Of a DNA stretch of 64,000 nt, positions 4,287 through 46,589 are shown piece by piece. Below the pieces are notes generated by a model. That model saw only the letters and a list, made by a program, of their open reading frames with translations. It was not told the DNA's origin and did not search any database. Location of the stretch: the NCBI GenBank assembly GCA_002170595.1, contig NHDP01000016.1, forward strand, positions 5,207-69,206, written 5' to 3'. The translations under genes and the position numbers were made by a program. Numbering within the stretch: the first letter of the stretch is position 1; each line of letters opens with the position of its first letter. This DNA is from Alphaproteobacteria bacterium TMED62. GTDB lineage: Bacteria; Pseudomonadota; Alphaproteobacteria; TMED109.

Positions 4287-4979
4287 TCACCAAATTTTCC
4301 GTAGTATGTAAAATGCTTCAGCTTTTTTTAAGCCTGACTCACTTCCTCTTTTTATAGCAAGAGCTTCAATAGCTTTGTATGATCTTGGATGGGGAAATGC
4401 TTTTAATTCCTTTTCATAAGATTTTAAAGCTATGAGCTTTTCTTTCCATACATCTTGTATATTAACAAAAAAGTTAGGTTTAAAAATATAGGGAAACTCA
4501 TATGGAGATTGATCTGTACTAGATGGTGTCTCAAAACATCTAATTTCAGGGTTTATTTTATGATATGCTATAGGCCTTAATGCAACTAAGGTGGTTTGTG
4601 CTGCAATTTGATGGTCTTTATTTATATCATTAGGATGGTGAATATAAACAATATCAGGTTTTAAACTTTCTATTATTTTCTCTAATTTTTTTACTATATT
4701 TAATTGAGCAACGGAGTCTAGTTTTTGGTCAGGGTATTTATAAACTTTATGTAAATTTACTCCTGCTAATTTACTCCACTTACGTGCATTACTTAACCTT
4801 TTATAATTCTTGTCAGTTTTATTTATTTTTGCTCCTTCTCCTAAGGACAAGATAACTAAAAAAACTTTTTCGCCATGTCTTGAATGTTTAATAAGTGTGC
4901 CACCTACACCTAACGCCTCATCATCAGGGTGAGCTACAATACACAGTATTGTTTTAGAATTAGTTTTTTTAATAAACAT
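4287..4979 (-). CDS. PIG-L/LmbE-family N-acetyl-sugar deacetylase
   Basis: Zinc-site motifs VAHPDDEALGVGGT and HHPNDINKDH. The 230-aa size is typical of the family. Confidence 0.8.
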   Translation of the reverse strand: MFIKKTNSKTILCIVAHPDDEALGVGGTLIKHSRHGEKVFLVILSLGEGAKINKTDKNYKRLSNARKWSKLAGVNLHKVYKYPDQKLDSVAQLNIVKKLEKIIESLKPDIVYIHHPNDINKDHQIAAQTTLVALRPIAYHKINPEIRCFETPSSTDQSPYEFPYIFKPNFFVNIQDVWKEKLIALKSYEKELKAFPHPRSYKAIEALAIKRGSESGLKKAEAFYILRKIW

Positions 4980-5078: not shown

Positions 5079-6263
5079 ATGAATAATCTCAGGTTTCCCT
5101 ATGCTAGAGCAGATTTGAATAAAAATGATATTAAAGCAGTTCTAAAAGTCTTAGAAACCCAATATTTAGCTCAAGGTCAAGTAGTAAAAAAATTTGAAGA
5201 AAAATTAAAAAATAAATTTGATGTATCAGATGCTATTATTTGTAATTCAGGTACTGCTGCATTACATTCTGTTTATAGATCTTTGGGATTAAATAACGAA
5301 AATGGAATCATAACTACACCTATTACTTTTTTAGCTACTGCGAATGCTGCAAGAATGTGTAATGCTCCAGTTTTTTTTACTGATGTTGATAGTAAGTCTG
5401 GACTAATGACACCAAAAAAATTACAAGAAGCATTTAATAGAGTTAAATTTAAAGTTAAAGCAGTAGTGGTAGTGCATTTAGGAGGACACTTATGTGATTT
5501 AGAAGGATTATCTAAAGTTGCTAAGAAATATAATAGTTTTATTATAGAAGATGCCTGTCATGCTTTGGGGGCACTTCATTATGGTAAAAAAAATAGTCTT
5601 ATTGGTAGTTGTAAATATAGTTTGGCAACTACTTTTAGCTTCCATGCAATTAAGAATATAACAATGGGTGAAGGAGGAGCTATAACCACAAATAATTCAA
5701 ATCTTGCCAATAAAATTAAACTAAATATTAGTCATGGCATGATTAGAAATAAAAGAGAAATGATTAATCCACCTAAAGACGCTCCTTGGTATTATCAGAT
5801 GAAAGATATTGGGTGGAACTATAGAGCCAGCGAAATATCTTGTGCTCTAGGATTAAGTCAATTTAAGAGAATAAACAAAATTATAGAAAAAAGAGATATC
5901 ATTGCTAATCTGTACAAAAATCATTTAGCTCACAATGAATACATTAGCTTGCCAAAATTTAGTAATAGAAAATATGGAGAAGGTTGGCATTTATTTCAAC
6001 TTAATATTGATTTTAAAAAGTTGAAAGTAAAAAAACAGGAATTTATAAAACATCTTAGAAATCATTCAATTGGGTCACAAGTACATTACATTCCTTTAGT
6101 ATATCAGCCTTATTACTCAAATAACGAGGAAAAAAAATTTTTAATTGAAGCAGCTACCTTTTATAACAACACTATTAGCATACCTATGTATACTGGCTTG
6201 AATAAAAAGAATGTGAGATTTATTGCAAAGGTAATAAATAATTTTTTTAATATAACAAATTAA
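5079..6263 (+). CDS. pseC: DegT/PseC-type PLP aminotransferase (UDP-4-amino-4,6-dideoxy-N-acetyl-beta-L-altrosamine transaminase)
   Basis: N-terminus FPYARADL..DI.AV..VL....LAQGQVVKKFE, then NSGTAAL and the PLP-Lys motif FSFHAIKNITMGEGG. It sits next to pseH, pseG and pseB. Confidence 0.75.
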   Translation: MNNLRFPYARADLNKNDIKAVLKVLETQYLAQGQVVKKFEEKLKNKFDVSDAIICNSGTAALHSVYRSLGLNNENGIITTPITFLATANAARMCNAPVFFTDVDSKSGLMTPKKLQEAFNRVKFKVKAVVVVHLGGHLCDLEGLSKVAKKYNSFIIEDACHALGALHYGKKNSLIGSCKYSLATTFSFHAIKNITMGEGGAITTNNSNLANKIKLNISHGMIRNKREMINPPKDAPWYYQMKDIGWNYRASEISCALGLSQFKRINKIIEKRDIIANLYKNHLAHNEYISLPKFSNRKYGEGWHLFQLNIDFKKLKVKKQEFIKHLRNHSIGSQVHYIPLVYQPYYSNNEEKKFLIEAATFYNNTISIPMYTGLNKKNVRFIAKVINNFFNITN

Positions 6264-6280: not shown

Positions 6281-6730
6281 ATGTCTGAAATAAAGATAAG
6301 AAAACTTAATAGAAGAGATATATTTTTATTATATTGTTGGTTTAATGATAAAGAAAACCTTCAATTTAAAATTAAAACAAAATATAAAATACTTTTTAGA
6401 AATCATAAAGTCTGGCTTCTTAATTTTATAAAAAATAAAACAGGTTTTATTTGGATAATAAAATATAAAAATAAAGATGTTGGTAATATAAGATTAAATA
6501 AACTATTTTATAAAACCTATGAAATAGATATATTTATAATGAAAGAGTTTAGAAGCTTAAAAATTGCAAGTAAGTCTTTAATAAAAGTAGAAAATAACTT
6601 AAAAAAAGGAAGCGTAATACATTCATATGTTAAAAAAAATAATTTGAGATCATACAAGTTTTTTATAAAAAATAATTTTAGTTTATTTAATACTAATAAA
6701 GAGGTTTGGTTTTTAAAGAAGCATGTTTAA
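6281..6730 (+). CDS. pseH: Small GNAT-family N-acetyltransferase, PseH-like by context
   Basis: 149-aa ORF starting 18 nt after pseC, with GNAT-like size and pattern. The assignment rests mainly on its position between pseC and pseG. Confidence 0.5.
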   Translation: MSEIKIRKLNRRDIFLLYCWFNDKENLQFKIKTKYKILFRNHKVWLLNFIKNKTGFIWIIKYKNKDVGNIRLNKLFYKTYEIDIFIMKEFRSLKIASKSLIKVENNLKKGSVIHSYVKKNNLRSYKFFIKNNFSLFNTNKEVWFLKKHV

Positions 6731-7701
6731 TTATTATAATCATAAATATAATTTTCTATTTTTTCTAATATTCTTGATGTTCCATGATTATCAAATTGTT
6801 TAGATATCATTTCTTTAATATTATTTGTTGTTTGATCAGATTGAACCATTAAAAGAATCTTTTGCTTCAAATCTCTATGTATATTTTTAACTATAAGTGC
6901 ACATCCACTTTCTTCCCAACTCGTTAATAATTTTTTTTGAATTTCATTTTGAGCAACTAAAACAGTTGGTATATTGTATTCTAATCTTTCAATTTGGGAA
7001 AACCCTGGTGCTCCGATTGCAAAGTCACTATAGTTATAAATTTTATCAAGACTAGTTGGATTTCTAAAAAGTGTAAAATTTTTATTTAAGGATATCATTC
7101 TCCTTATAGAAGTTATATTCATTTTATATTTTCCTAAAATAATATTTACTTTAAATTTATCTTCCATTAAAAATCCATTAAAAGTGAGCTCTTGAAGGGT
7201 CTTAATTATTTTTTCGGTAAAGCATTTAGTATCAACATTTCCAAATGATACTAAAATATTTTTAATTTTTTTATTTTTCCTTAGCTTTTGACTTTTTTTT
7301 ATAAACGGTAAGTATTTTAAGCCTGATATAAAGTTTCTTTTATTAATGTTAATAGGATGCATGCATATACTTAAAACATTATTAACTAATAAATATTTAT
7401 CTACGAAAATTACTACAGGTTTTATCCTCAAAATATTATTTTTTCTAAATTTTTCTATTTCCGGATTATCTATTATTATACATTTTGCGTTATATTTTAT
7501 TGCGTATTTTTCTGTTCTTAAAAATGATGTATGATTTTTTTCTTCTATGATTTCATCTTGTAAGATTTTTAATAAATTTTTTTTTGTACCCTTATCTACA
7601 AACCATACAACCTTACTGTTGATTTTTTTTCTTATTTTTAAACATCTATTAATATGTCCCTGTCCAAAATTAGAAGCAGTTGCTACTCTAATGATGTACA
7701 T
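6727..7701 (-). CDS. pseG: UDP-2,4-diacetamido-2,4,6-trideoxy-beta-L-altropyranose hydrolase (PseG, GT28-like)
   Basis: N-terminus RVATASNFGQGHINRCLKI (G-x-GH-x-x-R signature of PseG) and GT-B C-terminal half GAPGFSQIERLEYNIPTVLV. Its start overlaps the pseB stop by 1 nt. Confidence 0.7.
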   Translation of the reverse strand: MYIIRVATASNFGQGHINRCLKIRKKINSKVVWFVDKGTKKNLLKILQDEIIEEKNHTSFLRTEKYAIKYNAKCIIIDNPEIEKFRKNNILRIKPVVIFVDKYLLVNNVLSICMHPININKRNFISGLKYLPFIKKSQKLRKNKKIKNILVSFGNVDTKCFTEKIIKTLQELTFNGFLMEDKFKVNIILGKYKMNITSIRRMISLNKNFTLFRNPTSLDKIYNYSDFAIGAPGFSQIERLEYNIPTVLVAQNEIQKKLLTSWEESGCALIVKNIHRDLKQKILLMVQSDQTTNNIKEMISKQFDNHGTSRILEKIENYIYDYNN

Positions 7702-8708
7702 TAAACTAAATTTTTTATTAATTTTTTTATTTCATTAGTTTGTAAAAAATTTTGATTGTTTTTGCTAGAATATTCAAAAGGCTTTACAATTTTTTTACCA
7801 TTTTTTTTTATATTAGGCTTTATCTTTGTCCTGTCCCACCAACTAAGCATTGGCTGTATAATATAAAAATCTTTCATTTCTATACAGTTTAAGGACTCTT
7901 CTTTAGGTATCATTACTTCATGTAATTTTTCGCCGGGTCTAATACCAATAAGGTCATAATTCTTATTATTACTAATAGCATATATTAAATCTTTAATCTT
8001 AATACTTGGTATTTTTGGAATAAAGATTTCTCCTCCACTCATATTATTTAAACTATTAAAAACGAATTCTATTCCCTGCTCTATAGTTATTATAAATCTA
8101 GTCATTCTTTCATCAGTTAAAGGTAGTTTTTTAATACCTGTAGATAAAAGCTTTTTAAAATGTGGAATAATACTTCCTCTTGATCCTAAAACATTCCCAT
8201 ATCTTACTATAGAAAACCTAGTTTTTCTTTTGCCTACTAAATTATTTGCAGCTACAAATAATTTATCAGCGCAGAGTTTAGTTGCTCCATACAAATTAAT
8301 AGGGTTTGCAGCTTTATCTGTAGATAAAGCAATTATTTTATCAACATTATTTATAATGCTAGCATCAATTAAATTTTGTGCCCCTAAAATGTTGGTAGCT
8401 ATACACTCAGTAGGATTATATTCAGAAGCAGGTACTTGCTTCATTGCAGCAGCATGAATAATAATATTAATACTAGAACAAGCTCTTACCAATCTTTCTT
8501 TATCTCTAATATCTCCTAAAAAGTATCTTACCGGAAATTTATCTTCAGGAAACTTTTGTGATAATTCAAACTGTTTTAGTTCGTCTCTACTATAAACAAC
8601 TACCTTTTTTGGTTTACTAGAAAATAAAATGTTTTTTAAACATTGAGACCCAAAAAAACCTGTTGCTCCAGTAATTAAAATAGACTTATTATTAAATTGT
8701 GATAACAC
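7701..8708 (-). CDS. pseB: UDP-N-acetylglucosamine 4,6-dehydratase (inverting), PseB/FlaA1 family
   Basis: ILITGATGFFGS, YSRDELKQ, STDKAANPINLYGATKLCADKLF (YxxxK), VRYGNVLGSRGS. Confidence 0.85.
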   Translation of the reverse strand: MLSQFNNKSILITGATGFFGSQCLKNILFSSKPKKVVVYSRDELKQFELSQKFPEDKFPVRYFLGDIRDKERLVRACSSINIIIHAAAMKQVPASEYNPTECIATNILGAQNLIDASIINNVDKIIALSTDKAANPINLYGATKLCADKLFVAANNLVGKRKTRFSIVRYGNVLGSRGSIIPHFKKLLSTGIKKLPLTDERMTRFIITIEQGIEFVFNSLNNMSGGEIFIPKIPSIKIKDLIYAISNNKNYDLIGIRPGEKLHEVMIPKEESLNCIEMKDFYIIQPMLSWWDRTKIKPNIKKNGKKIVKPFEYSSKNNQNFLQTNEIKKLIKNLV

Positions 8709-8710
8709 AT

Positions 8711-10510
8711 CTAACCTCTATGATAATTTTTAGGATTACCCTCATACTGGACTTTACCATTTTTAATTGCAATGACATAATCTGTTTTCATGAATGAGGA
8801 TACCCTATGAGATATTAAAATTATAGTTATTTTTTTTCTCTTTTTAATAATAGTATGCAAACTTTTATGTATAATATCTTCAGTTTTAGTATCAACTGCA
8901 CTAGTAGCTTCATCTAAAATCAAAATTTCACTATTTTTTAATAGTGCTCTTGCTAGAATTAATCTTTGTCTTTGCCCTCCAGATAGGCTTTGTCCCAACA
9001 GGCCTACATTAGTATCTAATTTTTTAGGTAGTGATTTAATAAATTTATTCATTTTTACTAATGTTAAGGCATCCCATATTTTTTTTTGTGAAACTTTTTT
9101 TGAACCGTATGTTATGTTATTTAATATACTATCATTAAATAAGAATGGATCCTGTGGAATATATGCAATTAACTTTCTTAAATATTTTTCTCCAATTTGG
9201 TTAATTTCTGAATTATCAAAAAATATTTCTCCTCTATCTGCTATTAGAATCTTAGATATCAAGCTAACTATTGTTGACTTACCTGACCCAGATGGACCTA
9301 CAATAGCGTTAATTTTACCAACTTTGACTTTAAAGCATAAATTTACTAAGATATTTTTCTGAGCCTCATTATAATTGAAGTAAACATTCTTGAATTCTAT
9401 TTCTTTATTTAGTTCTAATTTAGAAATATTTCCCTTATCTGTATTAGACAATTTTTCTGCATTTTCATATATTTTTTCACAAAATTTATATGATGGTAAA
9501 AGTTCAACTAGTCTTGTTATATTATATTGGAATACCTTAAAAGTAGGAGTAAGTCTCATAAAAGCAACGCTAAATATTACTATTTTGGTAGCATCAAAAC
9601 TAAAGTTAGCAATTAAACTATTTAAAACTACTAATATAATAATTGTTGATATTGATATAAACAATAACTGAGCTGTTGCTGATATTCTAGTAATGCTTAC
9701 AGAGTTCTCATAAATTTTTTGTTGTACAGTTAATAATCTCAAAGTCTCTTTATTTACCGTATCAAACGTTTTAATTGTTTTCCATCCTAAAAATCTTTCT
9801 GTAATAAGATCTCTATATTCCGATCTTAATCCTACTAAGTTTTCACTTATTCTTTTTGTCCTGATTGCAAATGTACTACCAGTAATAAATACTATGAAAC
9901 TCAAAAATATAACTCCTAATAGAGTAGGAATAAAAGAAGTCAAAAGTAATACTGTCATGTAAATAAGCATAGTTAGTATATTTGTATAAAAAGTTAAATA
10001 ACTTTTCACTGTCATGGCTACCATTTGTGGTTCTATATCAGTAGCATTAATAAATTTCCCTGTATTAAATGCATTCATAAACCTATAAGAAGATTTCATG
10101 AGGCAGCTGAACATTTCTAAGTTTATTTTTTTATGAATTTCTGCAGTAATTTTTTGTATCAGAATCAAATTAAAATAATTAAGAATTTGTCTTAATACTA
10201 TAAATAATATAGCCATGCTTGATAATAGAATTGTACTTAACTTAATATTTAAAAAATCTAAAGAATTATATAAATATAAACATAGTAAAGAAGACTTTTT
10301 AAACTTTTCTATATCACCTTCTACTTGAATAAAACTTAATAAAGGCACTAAAATTGATACTCCCAAGCCTTCAAAAACTAAAGTTAAAGTTCCAAGGAGA
10401 AAAGCTAAATATATTTTAGCTTTATTAAACGCTTTTAATTTGATTAAAAACTTAATATGCCCTTCTACATAGTTTTTTAATTTGAATAATTTTATTATAT
10501 TTTCAAACAT
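8711..10510 (-). CDS. MsbA/PglK-like ABC exporter (fused transmembrane domain + ATPase)
   Basis: N-terminal half has multiple hydrophobic helices. Walker A GPSGSGKST, signature LSGGQRQR, Walker B ILILDEATSAVD. Confidence 0.85.
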   Translation of the reverse strand: MFENIIKLFKLKNYVEGHIKFLIKLKAFNKAKIYLAFLLGTLTLVFEGLGVSILVPLLSFIQVEGDIEKFKKSSLLCLYLYNSLDFLNIKLSTILLSSMAILFIVLRQILNYFNLILIQKITAEIHKKINLEMFSCLMKSSYRFMNAFNTGKFINATDIEPQMVAMTVKSYLTFYTNILTMLIYMTVLLLTSFIPTLLGVIFLSFIVFITGSTFAIRTKRISENLVGLRSEYRDLITERFLGWKTIKTFDTVNKETLRLLTVQQKIYENSVSITRISATAQLLFISISTIIILVVLNSLIANFSFDATKIVIFSVAFMRLTPTFKVFQYNITRLVELLPSYKFCEKIYENAEKLSNTDKGNISKLELNKEIEFKNVYFNYNEAQKNILVNLCFKVKVGKINAIVGPSGSGKSTIVSLISKILIADRGEIFFDNSEINQIGEKYLRKLIAYIPQDPFLFNDSILNNITYGSKKVSQKKIWDALTLVKMNKFIKSLPKKLDTNVGLLGQSLSGGQRQRLILARALLKNSEILILDEATSAVDTKTEDIIHKSLHTIIKKRKKITIILISHRVSSFMKTDYVIAIKNGKVQYEGNPKNYHRG

Positions 10511-10595: not shown

Positions 10596-11642
10596 TTAAT
10601 AAACTAAAATATCATTTTTTTTATAATTTTTATTTGATTTTTTTTCTCTAATTTTTTTAAAGTCAAAGGCTTTTATTCCATTACTAATTTTATTAATTCT
10701 TTTAAAATGAACATTATTGATATTTATTATATCACCTTTTAATATTTCTTTGCTAGCAACACAATATCTCACTATGCTATTTTTTAATTTTAACTCTTCA
10801 CAAATGGGTTTTTTATTAAAATCTCCTTTAATTTTTTCAATAAATCTAATTTCTTTAACCATTTGTTTAAAATCTTTTGGGTTTAAAGAAATTCCATGAT
10901 CGAATCCATGTCTCGTATTATCTAAAGTAAAATGCTTTTCAATTACTTTAGCACCTAACGCAACCGCAATTTTACAGGCCTCCCAGCCTGTACAATGGTC
11001 AGAGTATCCTGAAATAACTTTATATTTCTTTTCAATAAATTTAATAGAATTAAGGTTTATTTTTAATATTGGTGCTGGATATAAAGACACAGCATGCAAT
11101 ACACTAATATTATTTCTGTTTTTATTCATAATTATTTTAATTATTTTGCTTACCTCTTTATCATAAGCCATTCCAGTAGAAAGTATAATTGATTTATTTG
11201 TTTTTTTTATGGCTTCTAATAAAGGTATATTAGAAAGCAGACCAGAAGAAATTTTATATAATTTAAATTTTAATTTTTCGCATAATTTTAAACTATCCAA
11301 ATCTCCAGGAGTGGCAAATATTAAACCTCTGCTTTCATATTTTTTTATTAACTTTTTGTAACTACTTTCAGAAAGAATCGAATGCTTAAAAATTTCATAA
11401 GATTTAGTATTTTTAGAATATGAGTGATCAGGATTAACTATTTGAAATTTTACAGCATCGGCTCCTGCTTTAAAAGCTTTATCCACTAAAGTATTGGCTA
11501 GATTAAACTTTCCTTCATGATTTATTCCAATTTCTGCGATAATAAATGTAGGGGAGAGTAAATTGATCTTTCTATTGGTAGTCAAACAAAAGTCAATAGG
11601 GGATAGTTTTATTTTATTAAACATAATTTTATCCTCTAACAC
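10596..11642 (-). CDS. pseI: Nonulosonic acid synthase (NeuB family), probably pseudaminic acid synthase
   Basis: IIAEIGINHEG, GADAVKFQ, and a C-terminal SAF-like segment. It lies in the same strand block as pseB and pseG. Sequence alone cannot separate Pse, Leg and Neu specificity. An alternative start at Met7 (11624) would remove the 14-nt overlap. Confidence 0.7.
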   Translation of the reverse strand: MLEDKIMFNKIKLSPIDFCLTTNRKINLLSPTFIIAEIGINHEGKFNLANTLVDKAFKAGADAVKFQIVNPDHSYSKNTKSYEIFKHSILSESSYKKLIKKYESRGLIFATPGDLDSLKLCEKLKFKLYKISSGLLSNIPLLEAIKKTNKSIILSTGMAYDKEVSKIIKIIMNKNRNNISVLHAVSLYPAPILKINLNSIKFIEKKYKVISGYSDHCTGWEACKIAVALGAKVIEKHFTLDNTRHGFDHGISLNPKDFKQMVKEIRFIEKIKGDFNKKPICEELKLKNSIVRYCVASKEILKGDIININNVHFKRINKISNGIKAFDFKKIREKKSNKNYKKNDILVY

Positions 11643-12915
11643 TAAAAATACTTTTTAGTTCACAACCTTCTAAAAAATTTTGGGGATCTTTTTTTTTTAA
11701 AATATCTTTAACGTTTAAAAGAGATTTTTCTATCTTACTTACACTATTTTTTAGTATATCGTTATTACTATGAGCTAAACAAAGGTTAAAACTAGATCCC
11801 ATAAAGACCCCATTTTTTATAAACTCTTGCCTTAATAAGTGTAACAGAAAGCTTTGATTATTTTTTTTAATTATTAGTCTAGGCCACCAATCATTGCCTG
11901 CGAACTCTATGTAATCATTTAGCTCAATATCTCTAATTTTTCTGTTCGTTAGCTTTTTAAGTTTTTTTCCTAAAACACTTAACTTTTCAGGTACGTTTAA
12001 TTTTTCTATTTTATTCAATGTAGCTAATGCAGCTGCCATTGATAAAGTTTCTCCTGCATACGTACCTGAAACAAATACATCTTTCATTAAATTCATAATT
12101 TTTTTTTTTCCAACAATTGCAGATATTGGATAACCGTTGCCTAATGATTTACCAAAACAGCCTAAATCTGGTTTTATATTAAACTTTTCTGAAGCTCCAC
12201 CTAAACTAGTCCTAAAACCACAAACTATTTCATCAAAAATAATCAATATTCCATTTTTTCTGCATATTTTTTTTAATTCTTTTAAAAAATTTTTATTAGG
12301 GGGTGAATATCCATCAGGTTCAATTACTACTGCCGCTATTTTATTATTATATTTTTTAATATTATAAGTTAAGTTTTCAATATCATTAAACTTAAAGTTT
12401 TTAGTAAGCCTTCTTACTTCCTTAGGAACACCTGCATTTCTCGAAGTACTTCCAATAAACCAATCGTGCCATCCATGGTATCCAGAAACTAATACTAAAT
12501 CTTTTTTTGTATATGCTCTTGCCAACCTTATAGCGGCAGAAAGAACATCTGAACCATTTTTTCCAAACCTTACCATTTCTGCATAAGGAATAATAGTATT
12601 TAACTTCTCTGCTAATTCAATCTCAATAGGATGAGACATAGAAAAAATTACACCCTTATTTATTTGCTTTTTAACTGCCCTATCAACATCATTATCTTTG
12701 TATCCTAATATAATTGGTAATAAAGCTAAAAGATAATCAATGTATTTATTGCCATCAACATCATACACATAACACCCCTTTGCCTTTTCAAAAAACATTG
12801 GTGCAGCTCCCAAGGGCCACTGCATAGATGACTTAGAAAATGTCTGCGTTGCTAAAGGTATAGTTTTGGAAGCTCTACCATATAGTCTATTTGATATTTT
12901 GAAAGATTTCTTCAT
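11629..12915 (-). CDS. Class-III PLP aminotransferase (glutamate-1-semialdehyde aminomutase-like)
   Basis: GYHGWHDW, DEIVCGFR, PLP-Lys context CFGKSLGNGYPISA. 428 aa. Confidence 0.75.
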   Translation of the reverse strand: MKKSFKISNRLYGRASKTIPLATQTFSKSSMQWPLGAAPMFFEKAKGCYVYDVDGNKYIDYLLALLPIILGYKDNDVDRAVKKQINKGVIFSMSHPIEIELAEKLNTIIPYAEMVRFGKNGSDVLSAAIRLARAYTKKDLVLVSGYHGWHDWFIGSTSRNAGVPKEVRRLTKNFKFNDIENLTYNIKKYNNKIAAVVIEPDGYSPPNKNFLKELKKICRKNGILIIFDEIVCGFRTSLGGASEKFNIKPDLGCFGKSLGNGYPISAIVGKKKIMNLMKDVFVSGTYAGETLSMAAALATLNKIEKLNVPEKLSVLGKKLKKLTNRKIRDIELNDYIEFAGNDWWPRLIIKKNNQSFLLHLLRQEFIKNGVFMGSSFNLCLAHSNNDILKNSVSKIEKSLLNVKDILKKKDPQNFLEGCELKSIFSVRG

Positions 12916-14072
12916 TTAACCATTGAAATAATTTTTTTTATGTCTGGAAATGATAAAATTTTTTTTTTTTCTGCTTCCTTTTTCAAAATTGGTATTACCT
13001 TCTCAAAATTAATTGTTTTAAAAGAAAAGTTGTTCTCATTAAGTATTTTTATTAATGCAGACCTTCCTGATAGCTTTCCAAATCTTACAATTCCACCTTT
13101 AATACCAAAACTTTCGGCTTTTATTATTTCAAAACTCTTTCTATTTTTAATAATTGCTTTTTGATGCATTCCTGAAGCATGCGTAAAAACATTTGTCCCA
13201 AAAATAGGTTTGTTATCATGCATTTTAATTTTAGAAATACTCTCTATGAGCTTTTTAGCCCTATTAAAGTATTTCAAATTAATTTTTTTTGACAATACAT
13301 CTTTATATTTTAAATTTAATATTGCTATTATTTCTTCTAATGGAGCGTTTCCTGCTCTTTCTCCAAGCCCTCCAATAGTGCATTCTATTTGATCCGCTCC
13401 GCTACCAATTGCGGCTAAAGTATTAGCTGTCGCTAAACCAAGGTCATTATGACAATGTGCTGAAATTTTTATTTCTTTATTATTTACAAACTGTTTTTTT
13501 ATTTCTTTAATTAGTTTTGAATATTCTAAGGGAGTACTAAATCCAGTAGTATCAGGGAGACACAATGAAGAGGCTCCACTTTGCACTGCTACCTTTAAGG
13601 ATTTTTTTAAGAATCTTATGTCTGCTCTTGTGCAGTCTTGTGCTGTAAACTGAATATTATTAAAATACTTTTTTGCTAATTTAATTATTTCTTTAATTTG
13701 AATTATTATTTGATCTTTATTTTTGTTAATAGAGTACTCTATTTGCAAATCTGATACGGGCATCACTATTTGTAGCTTAACATTATTTATTGACTTTGTT
13801 GCTTCTCTTGCAATCAAAATATCCTTTTCCAGTGAACGAGCAAAAACACAAATAGTAGTATGCTTTTTACTTACTTTATTGCATAGATTTTTTATTATTT
13901 TTTCTTCTTCTATAGAAGCAGCTGGAAAACCTACTTCGATAGTATCAACTCCAATTTTTTCTAAAATTTCAAAGATTTTTAACTTATTACTTAAATTAAA
14001 AGCAATGCCAGGAGTTTGTTCTCCGTCTCGGAGAGTTGTATCTTGAATTTTTATTTTTTTACTATTCATCAT
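12912..14072 (-). CDS. HMGL-like (LeuA / homocitrate / citramalate synthase-type) 2-oxoacid condensing enzyme, lacking a regulatory domain
   Basis: IQDTTLRDGEQTPG, metal site SAHCHNDLGLATANTLAAI. The 386-aa length is short. There is a 4-nt ATGA overlap with the downstream aminotransferase. Confidence 0.75.
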   Translation of the reverse strand: MMNSKKIKIQDTTLRDGEQTPGIAFNLSNKLKIFEILEKIGVDTIEVGFPAASIEEEKIIKNLCNKVSKKHTTICVFARSLEKDILIAREATKSINNVKLQIVMPVSDLQIEYSINKNKDQIIIQIKEIIKLAKKYFNNIQFTAQDCTRADIRFLKKSLKVAVQSGASSLCLPDTTGFSTPLEYSKLIKEIKKQFVNNKEIKISAHCHNDLGLATANTLAAIGSGADQIECTIGGLGERAGNAPLEEIIAILNLKYKDVLSKKINLKYFNRAKKLIESISKIKMHDNKPIFGTNVFTHASGMHQKAIIKNRKSFEIIKAESFGIKGGIVRFGKLSGRSALIKILNENNFSFKTINFEKVIPILKKEAEKKKILSFPDIKKIISMVK

Positions 14073-14859
14073 TAATTAATTTATTTAAGTCTTTTTTGCT
14101 ATTTTCATTATAAGCTATATGATTATTAATCTTAAATAAATCACTATTTTTTTGAATTAAATTTACTGCTTGTTGCCATTCACAGTTATTTCCTAATTTT
14201 TTACATACCTCATTCAAAAGATTTAAATCTTCTTCTCTATCCAAAGTTAATCTAAATAAGCTTAAATCTTTCAGGTTCTTAATTTGAGCTGTTTTAAAAT
14301 TTCCAGAGGACATATATTTTTTTAATTTTCCAGATATATATGGGGTAACATGCTCTCTTGTAAATGCATTAGCTTTTTTTTCTGCTTCATACAGAGCAGA
14401 TGATTTAAAAACCTCAACATCTATTCCATCAGGGTATGTTCTTATAATAGTGTTAGATACATAGTCTAATTTTTTTTCTAATATTTTTTTTATGCTTTTA
14501 TCTATAAGGTTATGATCAATCAAAGGACAGTCTCCTGTAATTCTAACTATATAATCTGCACTTTGTTTTTTTGAAATTAAGACAAATCTTGATAAAACGT
14601 TATTTAGGTTGCCTCTGAATGTATTTATTTTAAAAGCTTTTAAATACTTAGCTAGAATATCATCAGAAGAGTGATCAGAACATGCCAGCCATAGTTCATG
14701 AATTAATCTACTTTTACTAACCCTATTTATTACCATTTCTATACAAGGAGTTCCATTTATCTTAATTAGACTTTTCCCAGGTAACCTGGTTGAGCTCATC
14801 CTAGCTTGAATAATACAAATTACTCTTTTTTTTTTCATTTTGTTTTGATTGCTTCGCAT
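14062..14859 (-). CDS. SpsF/FlmC-like cytidylyltransferase
   Basis: VICIIQARMSSTRLPGKSL signature. The likely true start is Met8 at 14838, which gives an ATGA overlap with the ATP-grasp stop. Confidence 0.7.
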   Translation of the reverse strand: MRSNQNKMKKKRVICIIQARMSSTRLPGKSLIKINGTPCIEMVINRVSKSRLIHELWLACSDHSSDDILAKYLKAFKINTFRGNLNNVLSRFVLISKKQSADYIVRITGDCPLIDHNLIDKSIKKILEKKLDYVSNTIIRTYPDGIDVEVFKSSALYEAEKKANAFTREHVTPYISGKLKKYMSSGNFKTAQIKNLKDLSLFRLTLDREEDLNLLNEVCKKLGNNCEWQQAVNLIQKNSDLFKINNHIAYNENSKKDLNKLINDE

Positions 14860-15890
14860 ACTACTTTAGGCACTATTTTTAATCCATCTTTAGGATATTT
14901 AATAGCTCCAATTTTTTTATTAATGTTTAATTTTAGCAAATTTTTATATAAAGGTACTCCCGCTATAACTGAGATTACTGCGCTTCCACTTATTCTGGGA
15001 TTAATTTCTATTACAGTTGGTTCACCATTCGATTTAGTCATTACATCAATATCAACTAACCAAGAAAGACTTAATAAAGCTACTATTTTTTTTGACAACT
15101 CTTCTAATTGTTTATTTTTTCTTATTATGTTTCCTTTGAAAGGAACTCCAGCAGGATTTATTCTTTCTCTGACTACACTATACAAATATTTTCCTTGATA
15201 AGCCAAAACGTCTAAATCATAACAAGGAGAAAAAAGCCTTTCGGATAAGATTTTCGGAAAATTAAACTTTATAATTCTTTTTATATTTTTTTTGAAATAG
15301 CTCAGACTCATATGTAATTCTCTAGACTCATTATAAACTTTAAAACCTATTATTTTTTTAGCAATTACTATTGTACCTCTGTTACCTCTAGCTATAGGAT
15401 CTTTAATTACCACGCCAGAGTAGGTATTATAAAAATAATTAACAAACTTTAAAAGTTCTGATTTTGACCTTACTACTCTAAAATCAGGAGTACTTATATT
15501 ATTTTTTTTCAAAAATTCATAAGTTTTTATTTTGTTTGAAATAATTTTATTTATTTCCGGTAGTTGACAAGCAATAGACACATTTAGTTTTTCAAACCTA
15601 TTTAAATTATAAGATAATTTAATAGCCTCTTCGTCAGAACAAGGTAAAATAAAATTTATCTTATATTTTTTCACATACTTGATAACCTGAAGAATATAAT
15701 TTTCATTATTTCCCTTAGGTAACTGTATACACAAATCAGCTGCAGTATTTTCATTATATAATTTTCTAGAGTCTGCAGATAAAATCCATATTTTGTGCTT
15801 AAAAGTTTTTCTAAAATACTCAATATTTTGTAAACCTAAGAATCCACCTGCTGAAGTAATTAATATCCTATGGCTATAATTTATGTTCAC
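14835..15890 (-). CDS. ATP-grasp family ligase
   Basis: N-terminus ILITSAGGFLG, central VIKDPIARGNRG, C-terminal Mg/ATP site VIEINPRISGS. Confidence 0.7.
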   Translation of the reverse strand: MNINYSHRILITSAGGFLGLQNIEYFRKTFKHKIWILSADSRKLYNENTAADLCIQLPKGNNENYILQVIKYVKKYKINFILPCSDEEAIKLSYNLNRFEKLNVSIACQLPEINKIISNKIKTYEFLKKNNISTPDFRVVRSKSELLKFVNYFYNTYSGVVIKDPIARGNRGTIVIAKKIIGFKVYNESRELHMSLSYFKKNIKRIIKFNFPKILSERLFSPCYDLDVLAYQGKYLYSVVRERINPAGVPFKGNIIRKNKQLEELSKKIVALLSLSWLVDIDVMTKSNGEPTVIEINPRISGSAVISVIAGVPLYKNLLKLNINKKIGAIKYPKDGLKIVPKVVCEAIKTK

Positions 15891-16025
15891 TTTTTTAAAT
15901 TAAGTTATTTTTTAAAAATTAATTTTTTTTAATTATTATAATAATCTAAGTTAATTGATTAATATATTCAATTATTACTCTTAATTATAATACAATTAAC
16001 AAATAGAAAAAAATTGTTATTTATT

Positions 16026-16889
16026 TTACCAATTTGAAGGATTTAATAATTTATCATTATTTAATTCTAACCACTTAGGATAAGCTAATTTTATTTTTTC
16101 AAGATTACTTACTTGATTTAAACTCTGCCTACTATTGATACCAACCACTATTTTCGATATTCTTTTATCTAATAATAAAGAATTCATACAAGCTTGTAAT
16201 TTTGATATATTTTTCTTTTCAACCCAAGCTTCAAATTTTTCAAAAAAGTCTTTATACAAAAAAAAATTTACCGGTAAACTTTTTGCTTCAGTTAGTAATA
16301 ATCCTTGAAGAAATACTGAACGTACATGAATTTCTACACCATCATTGTACATTTTATTAATCCATTTTCCTTTTTCAAATCTTTTATCAACTATACTATA
16401 AGGTATTTGAACTATATCAGGCTTGAAATAATTATATAACTCTTCCAATTCCTCTACATTATAAATAGTATAACCAATTTTTGAGATTTTTTTATTTTTC
16501 TTAAAGTCAATAAAAACTTCCAATAATTTTTTATCTTTAAGTAAGTTAATTGGATTTCTAATTAAAATTGCATATATTTTTTTTACATTTAAATTTGATA
16601 GAGAGCTTTGTATATTTTTTTTTAAATTATCTGAGCTATTTATTTTATAATTTTTCATTAAAGATACTTTAGTTATTATATTAAATGATTTTAAGTCAAA
16701 ATTACCTATTTTTTTTTCAACTCCTGTATATTCTGGTGCAGTATCTATGGTATCTATCTTAAATTTTAAGCAATCATCGAGGATGTACCTAATTTGATTT
16801 AGGTTTAAAAAATTCTTATTTGTAATGCCATAATTATTAGAAAACTGAGCAGTTCCTATAGCAATTTTATTATTTTTTTTATATTTCAT
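16026..16889 (-). CDS. Aldo/keto reductase family oxidoreductase
   Basis: IGTAQFSNNYG, DTAPEYTG (catalytic Asp/Tyr region). 287 aa. Confidence 0.65.
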   Translation of the reverse strand: MKYKKNNKIAIGTAQFSNNYGITNKNFLNLNQIRYILDDCLKFKIDTIDTAPEYTGVEKKIGNFDLKSFNIITKVSLMKNYKINSSDNLKKNIQSSLSNLNVKKIYAILIRNPINLLKDKKLLEVFIDFKKNKKISKIGYTIYNVEELEELYNYFKPDIVQIPYSIVDKRFEKGKWINKMYNDGVEIHVRSVFLQGLLLTEAKSLPVNFFLYKDFFEKFEAWVEKKNISKLQACMNSLLLDKRISKIVVGINSRQSLNQVSNLEKIKLAYPKWLELNNDKLLNPSNW

Positions 16890-16896: not shown

Positions 16897-16983
16897 TGGT
16901 GCCCACTCCCGGACTCGAACCGGGACGTCTTTACAGACAAGGGATTTTAAGTCCCTTGCGTCTACCTATTCCGCCAAGTGGGC
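16897..16983 (-). tRNA. tRNA-Leu (anticodon UAA), class II with long variable arm, CCA encoded
   Basis: Reverse complement GCCCACTTGGCGGAATAGGTAGACGCAAGGGACTTAAAATCCCTTGTCTGTAAAGACGTCCCGGTTCGAGTCCGGGAGTGGGCACCA folds as a cloverleaf. Acceptor GCCCACT/AGTGGGC, anticodon loop CU-UAA-AA, variable hairpin GTCT-GTAA-AGAC, T-loop TTCGAGT. Confidence 0.95.
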
Positions 16984-27067: not shown

Positions 27068-28054
27068 ATGACAAAAAGATTAATCAAGAATGAAATTAGT
27101 AAAAAAGCAGTTGATTTTCTATTAGTTTATTGTGGAAACCTTAAGCCAAATGAAAAGCTTCTAATTATATTTGATGAAACTACACAAAAATTAATCCCTT
27201 TATTTGAAGAGTCTGCATCAAAAATAACAGAATTTATTAAAATAAATCAAATTAAACAACTAAGCCAACATGGTTTAGAACCACCTAAAATTGTATCAAG
27301 AAATATGATAAAATCTGATTTAATAGTAGCTTTAACTAGTAAATCTTTAGCTCATACAAAAGCAAGAAATAATGCCTGCGTTAAAGGCGCAAGATATTTA
27401 AGTCTTGCCGAGTACTCTTTAGATGTTTTAGAAAATGAGGCAATCTTTGGAGTTAAAAAAAATAAATTAAATTTGCTAACAAAGATGGAAACCATATTAA
27501 ATAAAGGAAAGATAGTACAAGTAAAAACTAGCCTAGGTACTAGTCTAGAATTAAATATTGATAAAAGGCTCGCTAATAACTGTCCTGGTTTTGTTGAGAA
27601 ACCTGGACAATTGGGATCACCTCCAGATATGGAAGTTAATATTAGTCCAATTGAAGATTACAGTTTTGGTAGTTTAATAGTAGATGGATCAATAACTCAT
27701 CCTGAATTAGGACTTCTTCAAAATCCTGTCTCTTTAAAAATTCTCAAAGGTAAAATATATAAAATATCTGGTCAGGAAGAAGCAAAAAAATTACGAAAAA
27801 TATTTGAAAAACTAAACAATCCTAAAACTTTAGTTTTAGCTGAACTAGGTATTGGTTTTAATGAAAAAGCAAAGCTGTGTGGAAATATGCTAATAGATGA
27901 AGGAGCAGCAAATTGTGTACATTTTGGATTTGGTTCAAACTCCACAGTAGGTGGAAAAAATGAAGTTTCTTTTCATTTAGATTTTATTGTCAAAAATGCT
28001 GATGTATTTTTAGACAGTAAACTTATAATTAAAAAAGGAAAACCTTTAATATGA
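27068..28054 (+). CDS. M29 / aminopeptidase-T-like (NicX-like) protein
   Basis: C-terminal LAELGIGFNEKAKLCGNMLIDEGAANCVHFGFG resembles the conserved M29 segment (GIG.N....L.DEK..G..H.A.G). The call is tentative. Confidence 0.45.
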   Translation: MTKRLIKNEISKKAVDFLLVYCGNLKPNEKLLIIFDETTQKLIPLFEESASKITEFIKINQIKQLSQHGLEPPKIVSRNMIKSDLIVALTSKSLAHTKARNNACVKGARYLSLAEYSLDVLENEAIFGVKKNKLNLLTKMETILNKGKIVQVKTSLGTSLELNIDKRLANNCPGFVEKPGQLGSPPDMEVNISPIEDYSFGSLIVDGSITHPELGLLQNPVSLKILKGKIYKISGQEEAKKLRKIFEKLNNPKTLVLAELGIGFNEKAKLCGNMLIDEGAANCVHFGFGSNSTVGGKNEVSFHLDFIVKNADVFLDSKLIIKKGKPLI

Positions 28055-32689: not shown

Positions 32690-32723
32690 TATGGCTCATT
32701 TTTTTTATTTTATTTTCAAATAA

Positions 32724-33467: not shown

Positions 33468-33541
33468 AAATTTTATAATGTTTATTTAATTCAATACTTT
33501 AAATATTTTGAATTTGTAGTTTTTAAGTTGGAGGATTTTTT

Positions 33542-34300: not shown

Positions 34301-34308
34301 ACAATAGA

Positions 34309-34938: not shown

Positions 34939-35018
34939 TGAAAAAAATGTTTGGAATATTAAGATCATTCTATTTATAATAATTTATAAGATTTAAATTT
35001 TAAATATTATATACTTTT

Positions 35019-36227: not shown

Positions 36228-36352
36228 ATGTGAACTTTTTAAGTAAATTAGTAAAATTTATAAATAATGAGTAATGTATATTTAATAAATGTTAAAAAGA
36301 ATAATAGTATCTTAAATATGATTTTATTTAGGGACATGACACATTTTATACA

Positions 36353-38653: not shown

Positions 38654-38666
38654 ACATCCTCTAATT

Positions 38667-44388: not shown

Positions 44389-44530
44389 AAGATATTATAA
44401 ATTAACATATATTATTTTTTAAAATAATTAAGTAGAGAGTTTATTTATATTGAGTGTGTCTGGTGCAATAGGACAATGTTGCTGAAAATTAGAAAAGCAT
44501 CAAAATTTTTATAATATTTTTAAAGTTTTT

Positions 44531-46583: not shown

Positions 46584-46589
46584 AATTGT

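What the first reader, a model, noticed from the sequence alone, without database searches (positions are those of the whole stretch)
11629..16889. Translationally coupled accessory cassette next to the pseudaminic acid genes, likely building a non-standard nonulosonate substituent
Five genes on one strand are coupled by overlaps of 4, 11-25 and 14 nt. They are a GSA-aminomutase-like class-III aminotransferase, a short LeuA/homocitrate-synthase-like condensing enzyme (DTTLRDGEQ, HCHND), an SpsF-like cytidylyltransferase, an ATP-grasp ligase (EINPR) and an aldo-keto reductase. They sit directly upstream of the NeuB-family synthase. None of them is needed for the canonical six-step Pse pathway. 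A C-C condensing enzyme, a transaminase, a reductase and an ATP-dependent ligase together are what one would need to make a small amino or hydroxy acid and amide-link it to an amino sugar. The function of this gene combination is, as far as I know, not established.
Basis: inference. Interest (0 to 1): 0.65.

Follow-up and report, generated by a model that had tools for sequence, protein, structure and literature searches.

The report
Tailoring genes for a pseudaminic-type sugar
An uncultured marine alphaproteobacterium carries a pseudaminic-acid-type sugar gene cluster with extra, uncharacterised enzymes that most likely decorate that surface sugar in a way not yet described; the same module is common in ocean metagenomes.

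Summary
The five genes and their domain assignments are real. They are not one five-gene unit, and the overlaps are ordinary for this 91%-coding genome. Across about 90 related loci the conserved core is NeuB + ATP-grasp + SpsF-type cytidylyltransferase (CT) + class-III aminotransferase (AT3), usually with a PIG-L deacetylase and PseB/PseC/PseG. The LeuA-like gene occurs in about a quarter of loci and the aldo-keto reductase in about a sixth.

The CT is the hub. It is fused to AT3 in 32 of 80 loci, and elsewhere to ATP-grasp, GNAT, PseG, PIG-L or AKR. It is therefore probably part of the nonulosonate pathway itself, the CMP-activating step, and not an accessory. One caveat: this window also holds a NeuA/PseF-type CT 16 kb away.

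The LeuA-like protein is not housekeeping LeuA. It lacks the regulatory domain, and every NeuB-linked member has Gln or Leu where condensing enzymes keep a conserved Glu.

Best reading: a tailoring module that replaces an N-acetyl group on a Pse-type sugar with another acyl group. The chemistry is unproven. The AKR/CT/AT3 trio has been noted by annotation in Aeromonas, Legionella and Moritella. I found no description of the ATP-grasp and LeuA-like additions.

The parts
16897..16983 (-). tRNA-Leu(UAA). It marks the boundary of the sugar island, 7 nt upstream of the AKR start.
   Evidence: ARAGORN; Rfam tRNA, 59 bits
16026..16889 (-). Aldo-keto reductase, 287 aa. A variable accessory gene. D49, Y54 and K74 are kept, but the fourth residue of the catalytic tetrad is Arg, not His.
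   Evidence: PF00248, 68 bits. Alignment with relatives. Present in only 6 of 36 longer related loci.
14835..15890 (-). ATP-grasp carboxylate-amine ligase, 351 aa, GTG start. Core gene of the module.
   Evidence: PylC-like_N, ATPgrasp_Ter and ATP-grasp_3. AF2 model with pLDDT 92.6. Foldseek best hits are 2pn1, RizA, PurK, PurT and PylC. E295/N297 (EINPR), K120 and K163 are invariant in 31 homologues.
14062..14838 (-). SpsF-type cytidylyltransferase, 258 aa from ATG 14838 (the longest ORF starts at 14859). Hub of the module and the probable CMP-nonulosonate synthetase.
   Evidence: CTP_transf_3, 123 bits. PDB 6oew, 1.4e-31. Fusions with AT3, ATP-grasp, GNAT, PseG, PIG-L, AKR and GFO/IDH/MocA.
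12912..14072 (-). Short LeuA/IPMS-like protein, 386 aa. No regulatory domain; Gln145 in place of a conserved Glu. An add-on found in one clade only.
   Evidence: HMGL-like, 250 bits, + HCS_D2. IPMS NCBIfam models reach 391 bits against a cut-off of 532. 3rmj, 258 bits. Alignment A1. Q or L in 28 of 28 NeuB-linked homologues.
11629..12915 (-). Class-III PLP aminotransferase, 428 aa, GSA-aminomutase-like. Core gene of the module.
   Evidence: PF00202, 184 bits. PRK06209, 356 bits against 486; TIGR00713 hemL, 259 against 527. PDB GSA-AMs about 190 bits. Fused to the CT in many relatives.
10596..11624 (-). NeuB-family nonulosonate synthase, 342 aa from ATG 11624.
   Evidence: PF03102, 230 bits. 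NeuB_NnaB, 290 bits, and PseI, 205 bits, both below their cut-offs. Gene call of 342 aa on the same contig.
8711..10510 (-). ABC exporter, MsbA/PglK/HepA-like. Recurs in related loci.
7701..8708 (-). PseB, the inverting UDP-GlcNAc 4,6-dehydratase.
   Evidence: TIGR03589, 491 bits, above the cut-off of 408
6727..7701 (-). PseG-like UDP-sugar hydrolase; weak match.
   Evidence: TIGR03590, 78.7 bits against a cut-off of 153.6. Position conserved after PseB in related loci.
6281..6730 (+). Small GNAT acetyltransferase, the PseH candidate.
   Evidence: PF00583, 5e-6
5079..6263 (+). PseC aminotransferase.
   Evidence: TIGR03588, 420.6 bits against a cut-off of 423.5
4287..4979 (-). PIG-L/LmbE-family de-N-acetylase. 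Frequent partner of the core module.
   Evidence: PF02585, 91 bits. Present in 21 of 36 longer related loci. A CT+PIG-L fusion exists.
1300..3102 (-). Conserved 600-aa protein of unknown family. Candidate transferase, by inference only.
   Evidence: No Pfam, NCBIfam or PDB-sequence match. Homologues in 20 of 36 longer loci.
32724..33467 (-). Second cytidylyltransferase, NeuA/PseF-type, outside the finding. It competes with the SpsF-type CT for the PseF role.
   Evidence: TIGR03584 PseF, 100.6 bits against a cut-off of 205.7. This type is found near the module in only 1 of 96 related loci.

Best explanation
The region is part of a variant pseudaminic-acid-type nonulosonate (NulO) island in an uncultured, low-GC marine alphaproteobacterium.

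Proposed pathway:
1. PseB, PseC, a small GNAT, a PseG-like hydrolase and NeuB build a 5,7-diacylamido nonulosonate.
2. The SpsF-type cytidylyltransferase most likely makes the CMP-activated sugar (inferred).
3. Three enzymes form a conserved tailoring module that works on or next to the CMP-sugar: the ATP-grasp ligase, the class-III aminotransferase and the PIG-L deacetylase.
4. The deacetylase frees one ring nitrogen. The ATP-grasp enzyme then re-acylates it with a carboxylic acid through an acyl-phosphate (inferred).
5. The PLP enzyme puts an amino group either into that acyl group or into the sugar (its substrate is unknown).

In this clade a neofunctionalised LeuA paralogue, which has lost a conserved active-site Glu, probably supplies or alters the acid. 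The aldo-keto reductase is an optional extra.

Shown: gene identities, tight linkage to NeuB, the fusions, and the active-site change. Inferred: every chemical step.
For: Pse-type core:
- PseB scores above its cut-off, PseC sits at its cut-off, and PseG-like, GNAT and NeuB are present.

Linkage:
- Loci anchored on the LeuA-like gene show the same neighbours.
- A scan anchored on the ATP-grasp gene gave 80 loci. I annotated them with phmmer.
- With at least 6 kb on both sides (n=11): NeuB 11, CT 10, AT3 10, PseB 8, PseC 8, PIG-L 7, LeuA-like 3.
- Loci of at least 8 kb (n=36): NeuB 31, CT 30, AT3 29, PIG-L 21, LeuA-like 9, AKR 6.

Fusions:
- CT+AT3 in 32 of 80 loci.
- ATP-grasp+CT.
- CT+GNAT in Roseobacter sp. 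HKCCD7870.
- Among the 150 best representatives of the CT family, 43 are multidomain. Partners include AT3, GNAT, AKR, PIG-L, PseG and GFO/IDH/MocA.

CT as activating enzyme:
- It is the only CTP_transf_3 gene within 10 kb in L006, L007, L010, L011, L014 and L015.
- A B. subtilis spsF mutant makes legionaminic acid but cannot transfer it (PMC7439481).
- In Moritella an SpsF-like CT fused to an AKR was proposed to replace the missing NeuA (PMC7371886).

Ligase role: the ATP-grasp fold is closest to amino-acid and amine ligases.

LeuA-like is not housekeeping:
- No LeuA_dimer domain, and scores below the IPMS cut-offs.
- Q145 sits in an invariant QFTAQD motif, where canonical LeuAs aligned with it have EFSAED.
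- 27 Q and 1 L among NeuB-linked homologues.
Against: - No experiment exists and no product structure is known.
- This window also encodes a NeuA/PseF-type CT at 32724..33467, next to WbuX/Y/Z-type amidotransferase genes, and only one NeuB. Here the SpsF-type CT cannot be assigned by elimination and could have another substrate.
- The aminotransferase has no obvious carbonyl substrate. Most related loci lack a dedicated dehydrogenase, and a LeuA-type product has no ketone.
- PIG-L is missing from about 40% of the longer loci, though it may lie outside the fetched flanks.
- The NeuB, PseG-like and GNAT scores are below the subtype cut-offs, so the exact sugar stereochemistry is not settled.
- The scan anchored on the ATP-grasp gene is biased towards loci that contain it.
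Confidence: 0.5

Rival explanations
1. Extra amination of the sugar. After CMP activation, a hydroxyl of the nonulosonate (C4 or C8) is oxidised, by the AKR or another oxidoreductase. The class-III aminotransferase converts the ketone to an amine, giving a triamino nonulosonate. The ATP-grasp enzyme then acylates that new amine.
For: - The CT+AT3 fusion suggests that the PLP domain acts on the CT's product or substrate.
- AKR and GFO/IDH/MocA oxidoreductases are also fused to this CT family.
- The AKR-CT-AT3 trio sits inside Pse clusters of Aeromonas (PMC7874193) and Legionella serogroup 6 (PMC3694923).
- From my own knowledge, not checked here: an 8-amino nonulosonate is known from the Tenacibaculum maritimum O-antigen, and CMP-level changes at C8 are known for 8-epi-legionaminic and acinetaminic acids.
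Against: - Most related loci have AT3 but no AKR or other dedicated dehydrogenase within 10 kb.
- PIG-L co-occurrence is left unexplained.
- The window's AKR lacks the tetrad His.
Confidence: 0.2
2. The SpsF-type CT is not the pathway's CMP-synthetase. The NeuA/PseF-type enzyme at 32.7 kb activates the sugar. The SpsF-type CT, together with AT3 and the ATP-grasp enzyme, handles a second, modified ulosonic acid or a different cytidylylated intermediate.
For: - The window has two CTs but one NeuB.
- L013 and L032 carry two or three SpsF-type CTs with two NeuB genes.
- The cassette CT scores only 29 bits on the PseF model.
Against: - A PseF-type CT is found near the module in only 1 of 96 loci.
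- The SpsF-type CT is fused to PseG and to PseH-like GNATs, which are enzymes of the core pathway.
- B. subtilis spsF genetics.
Confidence: 0.2
3. The cassette makes an unrelated small molecule, for example by phosphonate-like logic as in FrbC/FrbH of FR-900098 biosynthesis, and lies beside the Pse genes only because both sit in a hypervariable island.
For: - From my own knowledge: FR-900098 biosynthesis uses a homocitrate-synthase-like enzyme and a cytidylyltransferase-PLP fusion.
- The Pantoea HiVir phosphonate cluster combines an IPMS-like enzyme with ATP-grasp enzymes (PMC7858074, listed).
Against: - No PEP mutase, aconitase-like or dehydrogenase genes are present in the window or in related loci.
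- NeuB linkage is essentially invariant despite shuffled gene order.
- The CT is fused to PseG and PseH-type enzymes.
Confidence: 0.04
4. The LeuA-like and HemL-like genes are the organism's housekeeping leuA and hemL that happen to lie in this island.
For: No second copy of either gene in the 64-kb window.
Against: - Both score far below the equivalog cut-offs.
- The LeuA-like protein lacks the regulatory domain and a conserved Glu.
- Both families travel with NeuB, and AT3 is often fused to a sugar cytidylyltransferase.
- From my own knowledge: Alphaproteobacteria make 5-aminolevulinate with ALA synthase and do not need HemL.
Confidence: 0.02

Closest known systems
Canonical CMP-pseudaminic acid pathway (PseB, C, H, G, I, F) of Campylobacter/Helicobacter
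   Same: PseB scores above its cut-off and PseC is at its cut-off. A PseG-like hydrolase, a small GNAT, a NeuB-family synthase and a cytidylyltransferase are all present in one island.
   Different: The cytidylyltransferase in the island is SpsF-type and scores 29 bits on the PseF model. NeuB, PseG and GNAT are below the subtype cut-offs. Extra genes are interleaved: ATP-grasp, AT3, LeuA-like, AKR, PIG-L, an ABC exporter and a 600-aa unknown.
Aeromonas group-I flagellin glycosylation islands, Legionella pneumophila serogroup 6/12 LPS cluster, and the Moritella viscosa Pse cluster
   Same: An aldo-keto reductase, an 'acylneuraminate/SpsF-like' cytidylyltransferase and a class-III (GSA-aminomutase-like) aminotransferase are embedded among pseB/C/G/I genes. 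These were noted by annotation only (PMC7874193; PMC3694923; PMC7371886).
   Different: Those descriptions mention no ATP-grasp ligase or LeuA-like gene. I did not compare their sequences with the window directly. No function was assigned to these genes there either.
Bacillus subtilis sps legionaminic acid pathway (SpsM, C, D, G, E, F)
   Same: An SpsF-type cytidylyltransferase acts together with NeuB-like SpsE and PseG-like SpsG. The spsF mutant accumulates the free sugar (PMC7439481).
   Different: That pathway makes a legionaminic sugar, not a pseudaminic-type one, and has no AT3, ATP-grasp or LeuA-like genes. Sequence similarity to B. subtilis SpsF itself was not measured here.
2-Isopropylmalate / citramalate / homocitrate synthases (LeuA-dimer superfamily)
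   Same: About 40% identity to bacterial IPMS. The TIM-barrel and subdomain I are present, along with R15, D16, H206, H208 and the HxSGxHQ motif.
   Different: No regulatory domain. The Glu of the xSxED strand is Gln or Leu. Other pocket positions also differ from canonical LeuA: F76 for Leu, C171 for Asn, T143 for Ser. I mapped these by eye on alignment A1 and the 3rmj alignment, and the structural roles come from memory.
ATP-grasp amide ligases (L-amino-acid ligases RizA/BacD, PylC, PurT)
   Same: Same fold and same ATP/Mg residues.
   Different: Only 12-18% identity. No PDB hit by sequence. The closest structure, 2pn1, is itself uncharacterised. Substrates are unknown.

Membership tests
Pseudaminic acid biosynthesis cluster | PseB, the inverting UDP-GlcNAc 4,6-dehydratase | tested here: met
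   TIGR03589, 491.3 bits against a cut-off of 407.75
Pseudaminic acid biosynthesis cluster | PseC aminotransferase | tested here: inconclusive
   TIGR03588, 420.6 bits against a cut-off of 423.5
Pseudaminic acid biosynthesis cluster | PseG UDP-sugar hydrolase and PseH N-acetyltransferase | tested here: inconclusive
   PseG model, 78.7 bits against 153.55. The 149-aa GNAT matches only general Pfam GNAT models.
Pseudaminic acid biosynthesis cluster | PseI-type synthase | tested here: inconclusive
   NeuB Pfam, 230 bits. PseI, 205 against 340. NeuB_NnaB, 290 against 400.
Pseudaminic acid biosynthesis cluster | PseF-type CMP-Pse synthetase | tested here: not met
   The cassette CT scores 29 bits on TIGR03584. 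A second CT at 32724..33467 scores 100.6 against 205.7.
2-isopropylmalate synthase (LeuA) | HMGL-like TIM barrel with metal and 2-oxo-acid ligands (RD...HxH) | tested here: met
   PF00682, 249.6 bits. D16, H206 and H208 are invariant and R15 is kept.
2-isopropylmalate synthase (LeuA) | Conserved Glu of the xSxED strand. From my memory this is part of the Glu-His pair that enolises acetyl-CoA: MtIPMS E218, SpHCS E155, LiCMS E146. | tested here: not met
   Q145 in the window protein. Q in 27 and L in 1 of the NeuB-linked homologues. E is kept in the canonical LeuAs aligned with it.
2-isopropylmalate synthase (LeuA) | C-terminal LeuA_dimer regulatory domain and the equivalog score | tested here: not met
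   No PF08502. Best IPMS model, 391.5 bits against a cut-off of 532.
Glutamate-1-semialdehyde 2,1-aminomutase (HemL) | Score above the hemL equivalog cut-off | tested here: not met
   TIGR00713, 259 against 527.3. PRK06209, 356 against 486.
Glutamate-1-semialdehyde 2,1-aminomutase (HemL) | Class-III PLP fold with the Schiff-base lysine | tested here: met
   PF00202, 184 bits. The FGKSLGNGYP motif is read directly from the sequence.
SpsF-type cytidylyltransferase (CTP_transf_3) | Family HMM and the N-terminal ARxxSxRLPGK nucleotide-binding motif | tested here: met
   PF02348, 123 bits. IIQARMSSTRLPGKSL is read from the sequence.
SpsF-type cytidylyltransferase (CTP_transf_3) | CMP-nonulosonate synthetase activity | not testable with these tools
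   Indirect only: fusions with PseG/GNAT and B. subtilis genetics.
ATP-grasp carboxylate-amine ligases | ATP-grasp fold with conserved ATP/Mg ligands | tested here: met
   AF2 model, pLDDT 92.6. Foldseek probability 1.0 to RizA, PurK, PurT and PylC. K120, K163, E295 and N297 invariant.
Aldo-keto reductases | Catalytic tetrad Asp-Tyr-Lys-His | tested here: not met
   D49, Y54 and K74 are present. The His position is Arg ('LIRNP'). It is variable (H or D) in relatives.

The most novel reading that the evidence does not exclude
Abundant streamlined marine Alphaproteobacteria display a so far undescribed pseudaminic-type sugar. Its extra N-acyl group is built by a LeuA paralogue that has given up the usual Glu-dependent acetyl-CoA enolisation, and so uses a different donor, a different acceptor or a different reaction. 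That group is then attached by a new family of ATP-grasp ligases working on the CMP-sugar. This would be a new branch of nonulosonate chemistry with new enzyme activities for three old folds.
Probability: 0.25. Interest if true: 0.7.

Novelty: new variant of a known kind. Interest (0 to 1): 0.55.

Why it matters
Nonulosonic acids on bacterial surfaces are recognised by phages, grazers and immune systems, and their N-acyl groups decide that recognition. A tailoring module this widespread in ocean metagenomes implies a common surface sugar whose structure nobody has determined.

The module also gives concrete, testable functions to three orphan enzyme subfamilies:
- the class-III aminotransferases fused to sugar cytidylyltransferases;
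- a PylC-like ATP-grasp family;
- a LeuA paralogue without the conserved Glu.

Finally, it would explain the unassigned AKR and aminotransferase genes already noted in Aeromonas, Legionella and Moritella Pse clusters.

Tried and rejected
- A genome-contig scan with the LeuA-like protein used low-complexity Lys/Asn-rich peptide patterns. It returned one irrelevant Chryseobacterium locus, so no survey of named genomes was obtained.
- Promoter and terminator scans are uninformative in this AT-rich DNA: 86 found against 82 expected.
- Rfam found only the two tRNAs.
- PDB sequence searches gave nothing for the ATP-grasp or for the 600-aa family profile. NCBIfam found no credible family for the 600-aa protein.
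- The Iyer/Aravind amidoligase paper (PMC3268129) is not held.
- Literature searches for ATP-grasp or isopropylmalate synthase together with pseudaminic or legionaminic acid found no description of this module.
- The Tenacibaculum O-antigen paper gave no link to a class-III aminotransferase.
- The 403-Da Pse-like glycan of A. hydrophila AH-1 (PMC4691044) is only a lead. I could not confirm that AH-1 carries the AKR/AT3 genes, and an acetamidino group would also explain the odd mass.
- Taxonomy could be narrowed only to 'Alphaproteobacteria bacterium' MAGs. I considered a SAR11 assignment but did not show it.
- I considered a phosphonate (FrbC/FrbH-like) reading and rejected it because no PEP mutase is present.

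Full report
WHAT IS THERE

The window is AT-rich (about 22-33% GC) and densely coding (about 91%). The same contig and close relatives occur in TARA and other marine metagenomes. Housekeeping proteins of the window cluster with proteins named only 'Alphaproteobacteria bacterium'. On the minus strand, downstream of a tRNA-Leu(UAA) gene (16897..16983), lie:
- an aldo-keto reductase, AKR (16889..16026);
- a 135-nt AT-rich gap;
- an ATP-grasp protein (15890..14835);
- an SpsF-type cytidylyltransferase, CT (14838..14062);
- a short LeuA-like protein (14072..12912);
- a class-III aminotransferase, AT3 (12915..11629);
- NeuB (11624..10596);
- an ABC exporter, PseB and a PseG-like protein.

PseC and a small GNAT sit on the other strand. 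Beyond them are a PIG-L deacetylase, a hexapeptide acyltransferase, a 600-aa protein of no known family and a PhyH-like dioxygenase.

The overlap pattern is only partly right:
- The AKR is not overlapped.
- With the likely true starts (CT at ATG 14838, NeuB at ATG 11624) the junctions are ATGA, 8-11 nt, ATGA and a 4-nt gap.
- Such packing is the rule in this genome: 11 of 39 same-strand neighbour pairs overlap.

IS IT A UNIT, AND IS IT TIED TO NONULOSONATE SYNTHESIS?

I looked at neighbourhoods from three independent anchors.

(a) The LeuA-like protein.
- Its close relatives form a small clade of about 385-aa proteins without the LeuA_dimer domain. All are metagenomic. Canonical 500-aa LeuAs follow at about 40% identity.
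- Their contigs show PseB-PseG-PseC-600aa-(GNAT)-NeuB-ATP-grasp-LeuA-like-[CT+AT3 fusion] (L006).
- Another arrangement is PseB-PseG-PseC-600aa-ATP-grasp-CT-LeuA-like-AT3-GNAT-NeuB (L007/L008).

(b) AT3.
- Very many relatives at 50-56% identity are fusions of about 685 aa, CTP_transf_3 + Aminotran_3.
- Contexts include L010, with all four genes in a different order.
- L011/L012, from a MarineAlpha9 MAG, have the ATP-grasp and the CT+AT3 fusion but no LeuA-like gene.
- L013 has LeuA-like-AT3-NeuB beside a second, legionaminic-type set.

(c) The ATP-grasp protein.
- It belongs to a small, specific family (55 hits).
- The family includes ATP-grasp+CT fusions (L014).
- It also includes a cultured isolate, Roseobacter sp. 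HKCCD7870: NeuB-[CT+GNAT]-ATP-grasp-AT3-PIG-L (L015).

A metagenome scan with the ATP-grasp alignment returned 80 loci. I annotated them with phmmer, using the window's proteins as queries.
- At least 6 kb on both sides (n=11): NeuB 11, CT 10, AT3 10, PseB 8, PseC 8, PIG-L 7, LeuA-like 3, AKR 0.
- Loci of at least 8 kb (n=36): NeuB 31, CT 30, AT3 29, PIG-L 21, LeuA-like 9, AKR 6.
- Of 31 loci with the clade-type LeuA-like gene, 21 contain NeuB, at most 4.7 kb away. All 12 that extend at least 4 kb on both sides contain it.

But the unit is not the five genes. It is NeuB + ATP-grasp + CT + AT3, often with PIG-L. The LeuA-like gene and the AKR are add-ons found in some clades only.

THE CYTIDYLYLTRANSFERASE IS THE HUB

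A search of 1.84 billion representative proteins with the CT found 1,154 relatives at E below 1e-30. Of the best 150, 43 are multidomain. I classified them with phmmer, Pfam and NCBIfam:
- CT+AT3: 9-10.
- GNAT on either side: at least 10.
- Tandem CT-CT: 5.
- AKR on either side: 3.
- One each of PIG-L, PseG (TIGR03590, 129 bits), GFO/IDH/MocA, ATP-grasp and a methyltransferase.

Fusion to PseG and to PseH-like GNATs places this CT inside the core pathway. Fusion to AT3, ATP-grasp, PIG-L and AKR says that those enzymes work on the same molecule family.

Further points favour the CT as the CMP-activating enzyme rather than an accessory:
- In six distinct loci it is the only CTP_transf_3 gene within 10 kb of NeuB.
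- A B. subtilis spsF mutant makes legionaminic acid but cannot transfer it (PMC7439481).
- The Moritella authors proposed that an SpsF-like CT fused to an AKR replaces the missing NeuA (PMC7371886).

An honest complication remains. This window also has a NeuA/PseF-type CT at 32724..33467 (PseF model 100.6 bits, below its cut-off). It lies beside WbuX/Y/Z-type acetamidino genes, and the window has only one NeuB. That type of CT is near the module in only 1 of 96 loci, but it could lie further away in the others, as it does here. I put about 0.65 on 'SpsF-type CT = CMP-nonulosonate synthetase of this pathway'.

THE LEUA-LIKE PROTEIN IS A NEOFUNCTIONALISED PARALOGUE

- It aligns over its whole catalytic part with N. 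meningitidis IPMS (3rmj, 258 bits).
- It keeps the metal and 2-oxo-acid ligands.
- In the strand where canonical enzymes read EFSAED, every cassette-linked member reads QFTAQD.
- Among all LeuA-like ORFs in the fetched loci the position is Q in 27 and L in 1. It is E only in a homologue on a giant-virus-like contig that lacks the cassette.
- From my own knowledge, this Glu (MtIPMS E218, SpHCS E155, LiCMS E146) pairs with a His to enolise acetyl-CoA. I could not confirm this from a held paper.
- Its systematic loss, plus the missing regulatory domain and sub-threshold scores, argues against a housekeeping LeuA. It suggests a changed donor, acceptor or reaction.

AT3 likewise scores well below the hemL cut-off. 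From general knowledge, Alphaproteobacteria use ALA synthase. No second copy of either gene is in the window, but the whole genome could not be checked.

MECHANISM

The ATP-grasp model is confident (pLDDT 92.6). Its closest structures are an uncharacterised CPS-like protein (2pn1), the L-amino-acid ligase RizA, PurK/PurT and PylC. That fits an acyl-phosphate-forming amide ligase.

PIG-L enzymes remove N-acetyl groups from 2-acetamido sugars. Its frequent presence suggests that one N-acetyl of the sugar is removed and replaced.

I therefore favour this order: core Pse-type synthesis, then CMP activation by the SpsF-type CT, then de-N-acetylation, then ATP-grasp re-acylation. AT3 would put an amino group into the acyl group, or the sugar, and the LeuA paralogue would supply or alter the acid in this clade.

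The weak point is AT3. A LeuA-type product has no carbonyl, and most loci have no dedicated dehydrogenase. The main rival is amination of an oxidised C4 or C8 position of the CMP-sugar, followed by acylation. It uses the CT+AT3 and CT+oxidoreductase fusions well but leaves PIG-L unexplained.

WHAT IS KNOWN

The AKR/CT/AT3 trio inside Pse clusters has been recorded by annotation, without a function, in:
- Aeromonas group-I flagellin glycosylation islands (PMC7874193);
- the Legionella serogroup 6/12 LPS cluster (PMC3694923);
- Moritella (PMC7371886).

I found no description of the ATP-grasp or LeuA-like members, or of the fusion network. This is a new variant of a known kind of system: nonulosonate biosynthesis with tailoring.

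VERDICT

It is wrong about the boundaries of the unit and probably about the cytidylyltransferase. Interest is moderate to fairly high. The module is widespread and uncharacterised, has a clear experimental handle in a cultured Roseobacter, and includes an unusual LeuA paralogue.

Noticed in passing
window 31943..39890: A second sugar region. It holds rlmB, a NeuA/PseF-type cytidylyltransferase (32724..33467), WbuZ/HisF-like (33542..34300), a probable WbuY-like gene (34309..34938), a WbuX N-acetyl-sugar amidotransferase (35019..36227), tRNA-Thr, a GATase+WbuX fusion (36818..38653) and a glycosyltransferase. This looks like acetamidino-sugar machinery. rlmB also flanks the cassette island in L010, L013 and L014.
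   Followed up: partly
window 43480..63988: A third polysaccharide region. It holds methyltransferases, E1 alpha/beta dehydrogenase subunits, two DegT aminotransferases, heptose-type genes (SIS, HAD, a PfkB+cytidylyltransferase-like fusion, transaldolase), several epimerases/dehydratases, UDP-glucose dehydrogenase, GFO/IDH/MocA and UDP-GlcNAc 2-epimerase.
   Followed up: partly
window 1300..3102 (-): A 600-aa protein with no Pfam, NCBIfam or PDB-sequence match. It is conserved in 20 of 36 longer related loci, usually right after PseC. Invariant residues include H338, K456, Y458, D487, R489, S505, T506 and W509. One homologue gives a weak hit to a Leptospira 'LIC12162 family transferase' (E 0.0018). 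It may be the sugar transferase.
   Followed up: partly
L004 10001..11143 and L005: A short LeuA homologue (45% identity) that keeps the canonical Glu sits on a 239-kb contig resembling a giant virus. The contig carries an mRNA-capping methyltransferase, an NPHI-like helicase and an SNF2 protein, and has no nonulosonate genes.
   Followed up: no
L006 14147..19055: Downstream of the cassette lie a PPDK_N/PEP-utilizer protein, an APS-kinase-like protein and a Peptidase_C26 glutaminase. From memory, this combination resembles the Campylobacter O-methyl-phosphoramidate genes Cj1418, Cj1415 and Cj1417.
   Followed up: no
window 28051..30762 (+): A 903-aa fusion of an acyl-CoA/AMP-dependent ligase (N-terminal) with a class I/II aminotransferase (C-terminal).
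   Followed up: no
L016 (1.68-Mb long-read contig): Syntenic with the window: RNR, CoxL-like, map, then ATP-grasp-CT-LeuA-like-AT3-NeuB-PseB. The genes are broken into fragments, probably by long-read frameshift errors. The island occupies the same chromosomal site in a relative.
   Followed up: no
representatives P0367, P0368, P0369, P0371, P0470: Tandem duplications of the SpsF-type cytidylyltransferase domain within one polypeptide, about 480-515 aa.
   Followed up: no
window 16026..16889 (-): The AKR has Arg where the catalytic tetrad normally has His ('LIRNP'). Relatives have H or D at this position. Its best NCBIfam hit is the Caulobacter regulator KidO, far below the cut-off.
   Followed up: partly
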